NCBI GenBank assembly: GCA_951406725.2
Contig: OX597824.1
Location: forward strand, 80,910,001 to 80,974,000
Origin: Octopus vulgaris
Taxonomy: Eukaryota
DNA: 64,000 nucleotides
Direction of reading: 5' to 3'
Shown: positions 2,782 through 57,258 of the stretch, one piece after another
How positions within the stretch are numbered: the stretch's first letter is position 1
Layout of the letters: each line of letters begins with the position of its first letter
Position numbers and translations under genes: made by a program
The notes under the pieces: generated by a model
Seen by the model: the letters and a program-made list of their open reading frames with translations, nothing else
Told to the model about the DNA's origin: nothing
Databases searched by the model: none

Positions 2782-3135
2782 TACACACGCACACACATGG
2801 ATACATACACAAACAAACACACACATATATATGCTTTAGTTCTCATTAGCGTTTGTCATTAATTTTAATATTCCACTCTTTCGTTCTTTCATATCATTCA
2901 CTCTTTCTCTCCTTCAGTCTCTTATTTTCTTTTATTTCTCTTTTTCTCTTTCCTTTCGACTTTCCCTTATCTTTCATTCACTCATTTTTTCTCTCTTTCT
3001 GCCGTATTTTCTTTCACATCACCGCCAACCCTCACTACTTTTCTTCCTAACTTCGTTCGTTCGTTCGTATTGAATATCCTCATCGTCCTCATTACAAAAA
3101 GCAAAAAAAAAAGCAACAAAATACACACTCACACA

Positions 3136-3185
<50 letters not shown>

Positions 3186-3384
3186 TAGACATAGGTGCAC
3201 ATACATACAAACATACACATACATATGTACACAAAAGGACCCCACCGAGAACAAAGATGTCGTCTGCTTTTTTTATTTTTATGGTTATCATAAAATGCTC
3301 AATCAGTCAGCTAACCAATTCGAGACAGCGGGATATTTTGTGTTGTTAGCACAATGGCTGACACAAACGCATATAGATATAACC

Positions 3385-3433
<49 letters not shown>

Positions 3434-3790
3434 GTACATATGTAGGCACATTCAAACATATGCAGAGAAATACGTTAAAAATGGTCGACAGTAACATGAT
3501 AGACAACATAATCCGAAAATGGTACTGCTTCATTTCTCGGTATAACTAGGAGTTAAATGTATCGTATTCAACTCAGACGAGAATTATATATTAGTTTATT
3601 TATTTATTTCATTATCTATTTTGCTGATATGTTTTTTATGCATTTATTATATTTATTTTTCTGCTTTCCATCAATCGAACGTAGCAAATGGAGGAAAAAG
3701 TTTACTGAAGCTTAACGTTGCAAGCAAGATTTACCTCTGTCTGTGTGTCTGTCTCTCTCTCATTGTCTTTTCTCTTTTTTGCTTTTATTA

Positions 3791-4080
3791 TACAGGGGTT
3801 GGACAAAATAATTGAAATACCCGGCTAAATGGATGTGTTATTATTTAATAGGGAGTTGGTCTACCTTTGACAACAGTCACAAATTTAATACGTCGCGGAA
3901 TTGACTCATACAGGTTCTGAAATGACGATAGAGGAAATTTGACACAAATTCAAGTAAAACATGCTTTAGTTACTTCAGTGACGATGGGAAGTGAACCTCT
4001 TTGCATAGCTTCTCCAAAATGCAACAAGTGTGTGATTATGCTGAGAACTGGGGGGTGGGGGGTGGAGAGTCTCAATGGTT
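3791..4080 (-). mobile_element. Tc1-like transposon 3' end with right TIR
   Basis: TA-CAGGGGTTGGACAAAATAAT terminus; minus strand reads NLYESIPRRIKFVTVVKGRPTPY*, like the Tc1 transposase C-terminus; frameshifted. Confidence 0.75.
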
Positions 4081-4164
4081 TATTTCATTTTTGCGCTCTT
4101 TGTGGCAATATTGAACAACATTAGCTACATGAATTATTATCCTGGAATATTGTTTTCTACTCGA

Positions 4165-4578
4165 GGCAGAAGGCCCGAGATTTTTGGGAGGGAGGGAGTA
4201 GCCTATGAGATCGACAAAAGTACGCAACTGGTACTTAATTTATCAACCCCGAAAGGATGAAAGGCAAAGTCGACCTCGGAGGAATTTGAACTCAGAACCT
4301 AAAGATAGACGAAATACCGCTAAACGTTTCGCGTGGCGTGCTAATGTTTCTTATTTCTTTATTGCCCACACGAGGCTAAACATAGAGGAGACAAACAAGG
4401 ACAGACAAAGGGATTAAGTCGATTAGATCGACCCCAGTGCGTAACTGGTACTTAATTTATCGACCCAGAAAGGATGAAAGGCAAAGTCGACCTCGGCGGA
4501 ATTTGAACTCTGAACGTAACGGCAGACGAAATACCGCTAAGCATTTCGCCCGAGGTGCTAACGATTCTGCCAACTCGC
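4165..4578 (-). mobile_element. Family A SINE head-to-tail dimer
   Basis: Two consecutive family A bodies with different 3' tails. Confidence 0.85.
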
Positions 4579-4922
4579 AGAATAATATTGACGGTGACTA
4601 TGCAGTTTTTGCCAGCGAAGTCATCATCTGGTTGCTCAACTTTGGCTTGGTTGGCCGAATATTTGAAGCCAAAGTCAATACAACTTTTCTTTCTTTTGTC
4701 TTTCTGTTATGTGTTTCAGTCATTTGACTGCAGCCATGCTGGAGCACCACCTTTAGTCAAGCAAATCGACCCCAGGACTTATTCTTTGTATGTGTATGTA
4801 TGTATATATATATATATACGCACATACATACATGCATACATACATACATACATACATAAATACATACATACATATATATATATATATACATATACATCTA
4901 CAGATATATACATACACTTCTA

Positions 4923-22430: not shown

Positions 22431-22485
<55 letters not shown>

Positions 22486-22637
22486 AATTAAGGACTGAAC
22501 ACGAAAAAGTGGACAGTCAACATGCTAGATATAGACGTCAAATCGCCATTCTCCACAAAAAGTCTATGTTCTCAGATCAAACTCAACACAAAACCAAAAC
22601 AATAAACAAGTGAAAAATATACGAAATAAATATTTAC

Positions 22638-22703
22638 CCATGTACTAAATTTAGTTTCGGCTGTTATTTTCCGCAAGGAAAAGTGCAGCCATCATCAGCA
22701 TGG
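22638..22703 (-). ncRNA. Type I hammerhead ribozyme, copy 1
   Basis: Minus strand: CCATG CTGATGA T GGCTG cac TTTTCC ttgc GGAAAA taa CAGCC GAA ACTAAATTTAGT A CATGG; GUA site. Confidence 0.9.
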
Positions 22704-23155
22704 TCCCATATAAAATGTAATTTGCTATACTAAATGCCAACACGATACCGAAATATCGCGTGCATGGAGTACGGCCTATTACATTTGAAATATATATTTC
22801 AAATGTCTCTAATTTTGGCGCGATGAGACCCGAGAAAACTAGCCTGCAGCTAATAGTTAGCAGCAGTTAATTTATCGGTTAGAGAACAAATATTTATATA
22901 AAATTAAAATTAAATTTAGGGTAAAAATTGATATTTATCAATTAGAACCAGTGGTCTAGCATATTAAAGAAAGAATCCGAAGATTAAAATATTTATATAT
23001 ACCAATTAAGGACTGAACACGAAAAAGTGGACTGTCAACATGCTAGATATAGACGTCAAATCGCCATTCTCCACAAAAAGTCTATGTTCTCAGATCAAAC
23101 TCAACACAAAACCAAAACAATAAACAAGTGAAAGATATACGAAATAAATATTTAC

Positions 23156-23221
23156 CCATGTACTAAATTTAGTTTCGGCTGTTATTTTCCGCAAGGAAAA
23201 GTGCAGCCATCATCAGCATGG
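23156..23221 (-). ncRNA. Type I hammerhead ribozyme, copy 2
   Basis: Identical to 22638-22703, 518 nt away on the same strand. Confidence 0.9.
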
Positions 23222-23442
23222 TCCCATATAAAATGTAATTTGCTATACTAAATGCCAACACGATACCGAAATATCCCGTGCATGGAGTACGGCCTATTAC
23301 ATTTGAAATATATATTTCAAATGTCTCTAATTTTGGCGCGATGAGACCCGAGAAAACTAGCCTGCAGCTAATAGTTAGCAGCAGTTAATTTATCGGTTAG
23401 AGAACAAATATTTATATAAAATTAAATTTTATATATATATAT

Positions 23443-23732: not shown

Positions 23733-24186
23733 TACAAACTACAGTAGCATCCACCCTTAGGGGTTAGCCATATTCAAATGGCAAATATGCGTCACAATGT
23801 GTTACCGCTACTGTTTATAACTCGCTCTGAGATTTATCATTGTTTGATTTCACTTTTTCAATATCAGTGTCAATCGACACTGGAAAAAGTATATGTATTT
23901 GTGAAGGGAGCTGACTTCTCGTCGACAACTGTGATTGTCACACGCTGATGATAGGTAAACACCTTGAAACTCGAGTACGTGTGTATCATAAGTTGAAGAC
24001 GGGAAGGATGACTTCCTTCACAAATACTGATAGGGCACAGATAGTGTGTCTATAGCCAGCTGGAGGAGATATCTTCCTGGGGCTACAAACTACAGTAGCA
24101 TCCACCCTTAGGGGTTAGCCAAATGGCAAATATGCTTCACGATGTGTTACCGCTACTGTTTATAACTCGCTCTGAGATTTATCATT
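23733..24186 (+). mobile_element. Retrozyme-like element, 351-bp unit, about 1.3 copies, inside (TA)n
   Basis: Direct repeat 23733-23841 / 24084-24186; hammerhead at the tip of rod-like stem 23895-24027. Confidence 0.85.
23939..23983 (+). ncRNA. Minimal type I hammerhead ribozyme
   Basis: CACACG CTGATGA T AGGT aaac ACCT T GAA ACTCGAGT A CGTGTG; predicted cleavage after 23977. Confidence 0.9.
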
Positions 24187-24285
24187 ATATATATATATAT
24201 ACATGTACATATATATACATATATATATATATATACATACATACATATATATATATATACATGTATATATGGTTTTATCTCTAAT

Positions 24286-24320
<35 letters not shown>

Positions 24321-24814
24321 CGATATACATATATACATATATATACACATACATACAATATGCATATATATATAAGCACACGTGTACAAACACACGCACG
24401 CACGCATACGTGCACGCACACGCGGACACACGTACCAAACACTCATACACACAAACAGACATGCACTCACACATATATGTAGCTTGTTCGGCAGACAGAT
24501 ACATAGCAATATCATATTAATTAATTAGTTCAGGTTAAAAAGTTCGCCCTGATATGCAAATTAAGCAGATCTTTCACCATTATGTCTGTGTCGGTGCAAA
24601 CTACAAATAACACTGAACTTATTTTTGCACGTGAACAGGAAATGCGTAACTGACTCTGATTAGCACTATTAAACATAGAAACCTGGGTGAACGCTGACGT
24701 CTTCTATCCACAAAATCGTGGCTTTAACACTGATAGTAATTTTCACAGCAAGGACGCTTGCACGACACAAGTTCATTTACTTAATTACACTAAGGAAGTG
24801 GCATATGTCTGTGT

Positions 24815-26519: not shown

Positions 26520-26672
26520 ATTCTCTCTGTTTATTTTCTCTTATTTCTTTCCGCTGATGAGCGTAGACTCGAAACTTAAAAGACTTTTCATGTTTCCGAG
26601 CGTCAAGCTAATACATCTTCTTGTTGTTCATACACCTGTCTTCGTCTTTTGCTTTTCTTTAAAATTTCAACT
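26520..26672 (+). mobile_element. Short interspersed family E copy with hammerhead-like core
   Basis: tctttccgCTGATGAgcgtagactcGAAACttaaaaga; homologous to 37856, 38514 and 41595. Confidence 0.7.
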
Positions 26673-31755: not shown

Positions 31756-34062
<2,307 letters not shown>

Positions 34063-56693: not shown

Positions 56694-57258
56694 ATGCAGG
56701 AAGTAGTTAGACACCTTTAATTTTCCAAATTTCTGATCTAAGCGTCTTAATATGTTTTCAGCGGTGTAGAATTTACAATGTAATTATTCTTTTTCATTCC
56801 AGGTGCCATTATATTAAGCATTTGCGAATGGTAACCATGCCACGCACAGAAAATTCAGCAAAACTGTCAGAGTTTCAAAGAGGTTGTATTGTTGGGCAAT
56901 CTGAGTCTGGTCTTAGCCAGCGAAGAATTGCCGAAAATCTTCAAATTCCTCTTGCAACTGTTAATAGAATTATAGTGCAATTCAAAAAGCCAAGGAAAAG
57001 AATCAACAGATTCTCGTCCCAGCTGACCTGGTCCCTCGGAAAGGAAGCTCCGCTGTTTGAAGAGAATTGTGGAAAACGAACTCCGTTCGAAGTCTTCTGA
57101 CATTGCAAAATAGCTAGAAGTTAGTTCAAGAATGTGGGTTACATATCTGCATAGGCTTGCGTATTATGGACGAGTAGCTAGAAGAAAACCTCTCCTTTAA
57201 CCAATTAATATCAAATAAAAGATTTTGAAAATTAAAGGTGTCTATTTACTTCCTGCAT
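56694..57258 (+). mobile_element. Internally deleted Tc1-like transposon with both TIRs
   Basis: TIRs atgcaggaagta.ttagacacctttaattttc at about 56694-56731 and 57221-57258; MPRTENSAKLSEFQRGCIVGQSESGLSQRRIAENL.. paired-like HTH, frameshift, ..GRVARRKPLL; catalytic domain absent. Confidence 0.88.

What the first reader, a model, noticed from the sequence alone, without database searches (positions are those of the whole stretch)
23733..24186. 351-bp unit with a textbook minimal hammerhead crowning a long rod-like stem
Seen: direct repeats 351 bp apart and a hammerhead at 23939-23983 with a U.U base of helix II. Helix I extends through atcat/gtgat, agttg/caact, gacgggaag/cttctcgtc and cttcacaaatac/gtatttgtgaag (23895-24027). 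Inference: a 1.3-mer is what reverse transcription around a circular, viroid-like RNA would leave. The 2-bp helix III with a palindromic loop suggests cleavage needs two copies.
Basis: partly seen in the sequence, partly recalled or inferred. Interest (0 to 1): 0.75.

Follow-up and report, generated by a model that had tools for sequence, protein, structure and literature searches.

The report
Hammerhead retrozyme with Penelope-type insertion ends
This is one of more than two thousand genomic copies of a 351-353-base non-coding repeat that carries a predicted self-cutting RNA motif and sits mostly in TA microsatellites; it is a known kind of animal mobile element (a retrozyme), and its ends suggest that a Penelope-type retrotransposon enzyme copies it from two fixed start points.

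Summary
Observation confirmed. The 454-bp insert is a 5'-truncated 1.29-mer of a dispersed family (2,202 exact hits of one conserved motif) with three age classes; one young insertion has an empty site in another DNA data set. The hammerhead is the canonical animal type I form, not the Penelope 'min-HHR'. Its U·U pair is one subfamily state; the youngest subfamily has G-C. Fold and helix III palindrome are kept across subfamilies. In 129 sampled insertions, 168 of 185 outer 3' ends fall at two sites about 43 nt apart, and 43 of 44 back-to-back insertions with both ends at these sites use one of each. That is the published Penelope (PLE) 'tail' footprint, and intact Neptune-type PLEs here end the same way. 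Verdict: new member of the animal non-LTR retrozymes, likely PLE-mobilised. A circular template is plausible (about 0.6) but not shown: ribozyme-less PLEs also make partial tandems. This copy has one hammerhead, so it cannot release a monomer alone. No PLE sharing its sequence was found; cleavage and circular RNA are untested. The scan already noted the same kind and two-site pattern in other families, in this genome and others.

The parts
23733..24186 (+). Whole insertion: 5'-truncated 1.29-mer of the retrozyme, single arm, ending at the family's 'long' 3' site
23733..23841 (+). First copy of the terminal redundancy
24084..24186 (+). Second copy of the redundancy (6-nt deletion, 2 substitutions)
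23895..24027 (+). Predicted rod extending helix I, with compensatory changes between subfamilies
23939..23983 (+). Type I hammerhead motif (U10.1·U11.1, GUA triplet; predicted cut after 23977)
23969..23976 (+). Self-complementary helix III and loop 3; predicted 8-bp helix of a double hammerhead
23741..23814 (+). Predicted four-way-junction domain that holds the 'short' 3' site (unit position 63 = 23798; 24143 in the second copy)
24144..24186 (+). 43-nt 'tail' between the short and long 3' sites (inferred reverse-transcription start sites)
   Evidence: precedent PMC11167929
23650..23734 (.). Left (TA)n-type target microsatellite
24186..24374 (.). Right (TA)n-type target microsatellite

Best explanation
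The insert is one dispersed, 5'-truncated copy of a non-coding hammerhead repeat family (an animal non-LTR retrozyme) that is likely pasted into TA microsatellites by a Neptune-type Penelope retrotransposon protein acting in trans. Shown: copy number, three subfamilies, two fixed 3' ends, (TA)n targets, 12-15 nt target duplications, back-to-back arms with one end of each kind, a fold with compensatory changes, and an empty site. Inferred steps: (1) a copy with two or more hammerheads is transcribed; (2) two hammerheads pair through the palindromic helix III, cut, and release a unit-length RNA that a host ligase probably closes (about 0.6); (3) the PLE RT/GIY-YIG protein, probably a dimer, nicks both strands of AT-rich DNA and primes from both, one primer at each start site; (4) RT runs through the cut site for up to about 5 rounds, and the arms are joined at their truncated 5' ends or one arm is lost. 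The window copy is a one-arm product with one hammerhead and is likely a dead end unless cut in trans.
For: 2,202 exact motif hits against 0 for the reversed control; 353 and 464 hits for two hammerhead variants. 168 of 185 outer 3' ends at two sites, 57 exactly at position 63; 140 of those 168 abut TA; 43 long+short, 1 long+long, 0 short+short, binomial p 1.9e-12. Target duplications of 12-15 nt at 5 non-TA sites. Intact 781-aa RT + C-terminal GIY-YIG frames 0.5-3.5% apart, with the Neptune CxxC linker and two 3' ends into (TA)n; a second PLE family shows one long and one short arm in 2 of 2 inverted copies seen. Covariation: 18 pairs changed on both sides against 11.3+-2.0 shuffled, 92% paired against 37-47% for slid controls. 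All 5 units of the 5.1-mer share two variants, and neither of the two other loci carrying one of them has the pair. Only 3 of 152 arms stop within 4 nt of the cut site. Empty site in run X15.
Against: No PLE shares pLTR sequence with the unit in the 45 + 30 PLE loci tested. The one strong hit (L099) proved to be a separate older copy. Tail similarity to 7 PLE ends is not significant (best p 0.036 of 21 tests). Two of three PLE-retrozyme junctions have a PLE part more diverged than the retrozyme part (3.6 vs 1.1%, 9.1 vs 2.3%), so they may be later insertions with deletion. Five private variants and a sixth (L147, position 238) lie in only some units of an array, mostly across both arms, which a pure monomer circle does not explain. 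12 two-arm insertions have one end at neither site. The sample was chosen by six queries, not at random, and most sets required a hammerhead. The covariation shuffle ignores relatedness, and the changes amount to a few subfamily events. In the anole PLE, hammerhead cleavage was not needed for insertion in vitro (PMC11167929), and 8 of 9 Xenopus dimers did not cut (bioRxiv 10.64898/2026.07.22.740005).
Confidence: 0.8

Rival explanations
1. Same PLE mobilisation, but from linear uncut RNA: tandems arise by read-through of a source array or by repeated template jumping, and the hammerhead is dispensable or acts later.
For: Hammerhead mutants did not affect PAc insertion (PMC11167929). Naiads make tandems without canonical hammerheads. 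Variants confined to some units of an array. No pile-up of 5' ends at the cut site fits uncut RNA as well as a circle.
Against: The hammerhead core, helix II pairing and palindrome are kept across subfamilies about 20% apart. No source array with the L167 haplotype is in this assembly. Same-size mussel retrozymes accumulate mainly as circles (PMC7229834 section 14).
Confidence: 0.3
2. An autonomously replicating viroid-like RNA that is occasionally endogenised.
For: Viroid size, a strong fold on both strands, and compensatory evolution.
Against: No minus-strand hammerhead in the unit. The youngest subfamily is only 0.3-2.3% from its majority sequence. The dominant 158-nt contig in three runs matches a genomic subfamily. 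All sampled arms fit one RNA polarity with fixed ends.
Confidence: 0.05
3. Copies are truncated pLTRs of an autonomous PLE that I did not find, or a DNA-level satellite expanded by unequal crossover.
For: Xenopus retrozymes are homologous to pLTRs. The genome holds 6,136 GIY-YIG candidates, of which 150 were scored.
Against: Arms continue as head-to-tail units for up to 5 rounds with no ORF, and a 3.25-kb pair of hammerheads held no PLE frame (L166). Arrays are short, dispersed and have target duplications, unlike satellites.
Confidence: 0.08

Closest known systems
Animal non-LTR retrozymes (Cervera and de la Pena 2020, PMC7229834; Mytilus units of 350-390 bp)
   Same: Unit size, type I hammerhead, GC 42%, tandem copies, no ORF, target duplication longer than 4 bp, strong self-pairing.
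   Different: The passages read do not mention octopus, cephalopods, inverted arms or microsatellite targets (0 occurrences). Circles and cleavage were shown there and are untested here.
Retrozymes as non-autonomous PLE derivatives (Li, Clavereau and Pollet 2026, bioRxiv 10.64898/2026.07.22.740005)
   Same: Co-occurrence with Neptune PLEs; monomers, dimers and multimers.
   Different: Their link is pLTR homology and shared distribution, mainly in vertebrates. Here no pLTR homology was found and the link is the insertion footprint.
EN+ Penelope-like elements, Neptune/Naiad structure (Craig et al. 2021, PMC8557442) and anole PAc (Frangieh et al. 2024, PMC11167929)
   Same: [quoted passage not shown]
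   Different: No ORF; the tail is 42-46 nt; the hammerhead is canonical, not min-HHR.
Dimer-dependent type I hammerheads of newt and axolotl (PMC4209133, PMC7229834, PMC3088659)
   Same: 1-2 bp helix III with a palindromic loop; natural U10.1-U11.1 variants are reported (PMC3088659).
   Different: PMC7229834 found efficient monomer cleavage in the invertebrate retrozymes it tested; this invertebrate one has the dimer-type design.

Membership tests
Animal non-LTR retrozyme | Tandem unit of 150-450 bp, dimers to multimers | tested here: met
   Period 351-353; up to 5.1 units in one arm
Animal non-LTR retrozyme | Type I hammerhead in each unit; two or more in active copies | tested here: met
   Met for the family: 28 of 129 insertions have 2 or more on one strand. 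The window copy has one.
Animal non-LTR retrozyme | No protein ORF; GC under 50% | tested here: met
   No frame of 90 aa or more lies within the unit; 150 G+C of 353 in the young unit. PBS and PPT not tested.
Animal non-LTR retrozyme | Target duplication longer than 4 bp | tested here: met
   12-15 nt at L034, L118, L121, L175, L216; not readable in (TA)n
Animal non-LTR retrozyme | Self-cleavage in vitro | not testable with these tools
   Fold energies only
Animal non-LTR retrozyme | Accumulates as circular RNA | not testable with these tools
   Only contigs of runs guessed to be RNA were available; the circle junction equals the DNA tandem junction
EN+ Penelope-like element (autonomous) | ORF with RT and GIY-YIG | tested here: not met
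EN+ Penelope-like element (insertion footprint) | Partial tandems, inverted 5' arm, tail at one end, microsatellite bias | tested here: met
Non-autonomous derivative of a named PLE family | Sequence homology to that family's pLTR | tested here: inconclusive
   None in 75 PLE loci; only 150 of 6,136 candidates were scored and a subset fetched
PLE min-HHR (PMC4209133) | No helix III or loop 3; helix II of 7-8 bp | tested here: not met
   2-bp helix III with a 4-nt loop, helix II of 4-5 bp
Ribozyme-bearing viroid or viroid-like replicon | Ribozymes in both polarities (recalled feature) | tested here: not met
   No minus-strand hammerhead in the unit (helix II up to 30 nt); Rfam blank
Ribozyme-bearing viroid or viroid-like replicon | RNA-to-RNA replication | not testable with these tools
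   No stranded raw reads were available

The most novel reading that the evidence does not exclude
A dimeric Neptune RT copies one ribozyme-made RNA circle from both nicked target strands at once, one subunit at each of two fixed sites. The circle recruits the enzyme by fold alone, with no detectable sequence taken from its carrier. The family would be a small, recently mobile substrate for solving how Penelope elements make tandem and inverted insertions and what their hammerheads are for.
Probability: 0.4. Interest if true: 0.65.

Novelty: new member of a known kind. Interest (0 to 1): 0.4.

Why it matters
Which enzyme mobilises animal retrozymes, and how PLEs form tandem and inverted insertions, are stated open questions (PMC7229834 discussion; PMC8557442 section 15). 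This family gives a count of the one-long, one-short rule (43 of 44) for a 353-nt RNA, alongside young intact Neptune ORFs in the same genome, so a defined in vitro test is at hand. The class, the hammerhead design and the qualitative tail rule are already in print, and the scan has several similar families, which caps the interest.

Tried and rejected
Rfam: no hammerhead hit. L099 as the autonomous partner: rejected, the 83% match is a separate older copy 600 bp from the PLE end. L166, two hammerheads 3.25 kb apart: no PLE frame. Shared tail sequence with PLE family A, seen by eye: not significant. PLE-retrozyme junctions as proof of co-integration: L129 fits a template switch (PLE piece and retrozyme inside one TA tract), but L178 and L157 fail the age test; left open. 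A-to-I editing signature in copies: A>G 4 against T>C 5 among 59 single-unit variants, no excess (L147 and L148 are the same locus and were both in the 32). 5' ends at the cut site: 3 of 152, biased sample. Expression: no RNA holder listed on record. Contigs of runs guessed to be RNA cover the unit but not unique flanks, which trace DNA of a high-copy repeat would also give; not used as evidence. Hammerhead counts were not de-duplicated; one search replaces them, and its 129 insertions replace the 135 (loci with under 160 nt of flank dropped, 172 groups reduced to 129). The window sequence found no look-alike in earlier scan notes. Literature searches listed no paper on a cephalopod retrozyme; one search was loose (2 of 4 terms), and PMC13282606 has 0 occurrences of 'ribozyme' or 'hammerhead' in its main text. 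Supplements and figures were not seen (Frangieh Fig. S2, Craig Fig. 2, Cervera supplements, bioRxiv tables) and may already show the arm rule or an octopus entry.

Full report
1. Observation. The repeat, the hammerhead and the rod are present as described. The insert runs 23733-24186 between two (TA)n-type tracts. Unit positions below count from 23736. The circular 351-mer folds at z -7.9 and the rod at z -8.8. Only 133 nt are rod; the rest is hairpins and a four-way junction. Rfam finds no hammerhead. The host is an animal genome of 2.8 Gb in 227 contigs; 'octopus-like' is my inference from size and microsatellites and the wording of earlier scan notes, and was not tested.

2. Family. A DNA search gave 3,008 first-look candidates, 40 scored. 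A conserved motif has 2,202 exact hits against 0 for the reversed control. There are three age classes. The window's class (period 351-352; 353 hits of its hammerhead pattern). An older class about 80-85% identical. A youngest class (period 353; 464 hits) whose 42 full units are 0.3-2.3% from their majority. I found the youngest class through a contig variant shared by runs X1, X4 and X7. A DNA-like run holds a 3,771-nt contig that joins the flanks of the young insertion L175 without the element, so that insertion is absent there and probably polymorphic.

3. Ribozyme. Among 170 hammerheads in 129 insertions, positions 10.1/11.1 are G-C 70, U·U 36, A-U 33, C·A 21, other 10; the triplet ends UC 143, UA 21. 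The 8-nt helix III segment is fully self-complementary in 155 of 170, and the common loop variant keeps pairing by G·U. The computed double hammerhead is -28.3 kcal/mol against -5.9 per monomer active fold. This is the canonical metazoan type I design, known to need a dimer, not the min-HHR (PMC4209133, parts 1-2 of 4). On 26 sequences of the three classes, 18 of 105 pairs change on both sides (shuffled 11.3+-2.0, 0 of 500 as high) in the rod, helix II and two hairpins; slid controls pair 37-47% against 92%. The structure came from two of these sequences and the shuffle ignores relatedness, so this is support, not a probability. The window copy has one hammerhead, and 28 of 129 insertions have two or more on one strand.

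4. Insertion footprint. Of 185 outer 3' ends, 91 lie at positions 98-115, 77 at 50-70 (57 at exactly 63) and 17 elsewhere; 140 of the 168 abut TA. Of 56 back-to-back insertions, 43 have one end of each kind, 1 has two long ends, none has two short ends, and 12 have one end at neither site (p 1.9e-12 on the 44). Five non-TA sites show 12-15 nt duplications. These 129 insertions came from six differently biased queries. Partial tandems, an inverted 5' arm, a tail at one end and (TA)n bias are the PLE signature (PMC8557442, sections 6 and 15 and passages). The tail is the interval between two RT start sites, and the purified anole protein cuts and extends both strands and is predicted to be a dimer (PMC11167929, parts 1-2 of 4 and passages).

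5. Carrier. [quoted passage not shown] Six such ORFs are 0.5-3.5% apart. They end in (TA)n at two sites about 38 nt apart and carry hammerhead variants with palindromic loops, one family with U·U at the base of helix II. No family tested shares sequence with the unit. Three copies are joined directly at their 5' side to same-strand PLE sequence (L129, L157, L178). L129 lies within one TA tract and looks like a template switch; in the other two the PLE part is older than the retrozyme part. The carrier class is thus inferred from the footprint; the carrier family is not identified.

6. Circle or not. For: RT passes the cut site (3 of 152 arms stop there); 7 private variants and 44 shared alleles are uniform across all units of their arrays; the 5.1-mer's two-variant haplotype has no source elsewhere among the exact hits; same-size mussel units are mainly circular (PMC7229834, section 14 and passages). 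Against: some variants lie in a subset of units; gene conversion or a source absent from this assembly could mimic uniformity; Naiads make tandems without canonical hammerheads; PAc does not need cleavage in vitro. No usable RNA evidence was available. I put the circle at about 0.6.

7. Known versus new. The element meets every testable feature of animal non-LTR retrozymes. PLE mobilisation was proposed in PMC7229834 and argued by homology in bioRxiv 10.64898/2026.07.22.740005 (parts 1-3 of 5 read). Searches listed no paper on a cephalopod family or a count of the arm rule, but the qualitative rule is in the legend of Craig et al. Fig. 2, and supplements were not seen. Earlier scan notes describe other families with the same pattern; my reading was recorded before that, and those notes are not independent support. 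Verdict: new member of a known kind, interest 0.4.

Noticed in passing
window 22482-23429 (minus strand): A second, unrelated retrozyme-like family 300 bp upstream: a 1.85-mer of a 518-bp unit (about 512 elsewhere), 99% identical units, with a type I hammerhead at about 22638-22703 and 23156-23221 (long helix II, palindromic helix III). 1,375 first-look candidates; tandem and inverted arrays with two fixed ends about 110 nt apart.
   Followed up: partly
window 26554-26600: Hammerhead-like CUGAUGA...GAAAC with a palindromic UUAA loop but no clear helix I or cleavage triplet; probably a decayed PLE-type motif.
   Followed up: no
L129 880-1730; L212 3957-7157; L213 (reverse) 3102-4876: PLE sequence joined directly to the 5' side of a retrozyme copy; two involve the same PLE family. 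Template switch or later insertion with deletion.
   Followed up: partly
L091 906-1985 and 2245-4590: The young Neptune-type family has a 359-aa frame with no Pfam hit upstream of its 781-aa RT-GIY-YIG frame, although canonical PLEs are described with one ORF; whether the two are one interrupted frame was not checked.
   Followed up: no
L068, L079, L091, L099, L178 (PLE 3' ends): PLE hammerhead variants with U3-A8 cores (UUGAUAA, UUGAAAA) or CCGAAGA, each with a 4-nt palindromic loop 3.
   Followed up: partly
L168, L161, L175, L147: Variants shared by single units on opposite arms of one insertion; not explained by a monomer circle or by one linear template.
   Followed up: partly
window 33147-33992 and 56711-57100: Decayed RT fragment (RVT_1, E 1.6e-5) and a Tc1/Sleeping Beauty-type HTH fragment.
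   Followed up: no
runs X1-X19: The family is held by runs of four organism labels (A-D) in six studies, so it is probably shared by related species (only X1, X2, X4, X5, X7, X10, X11, X15 were laid).
   Followed up: partly
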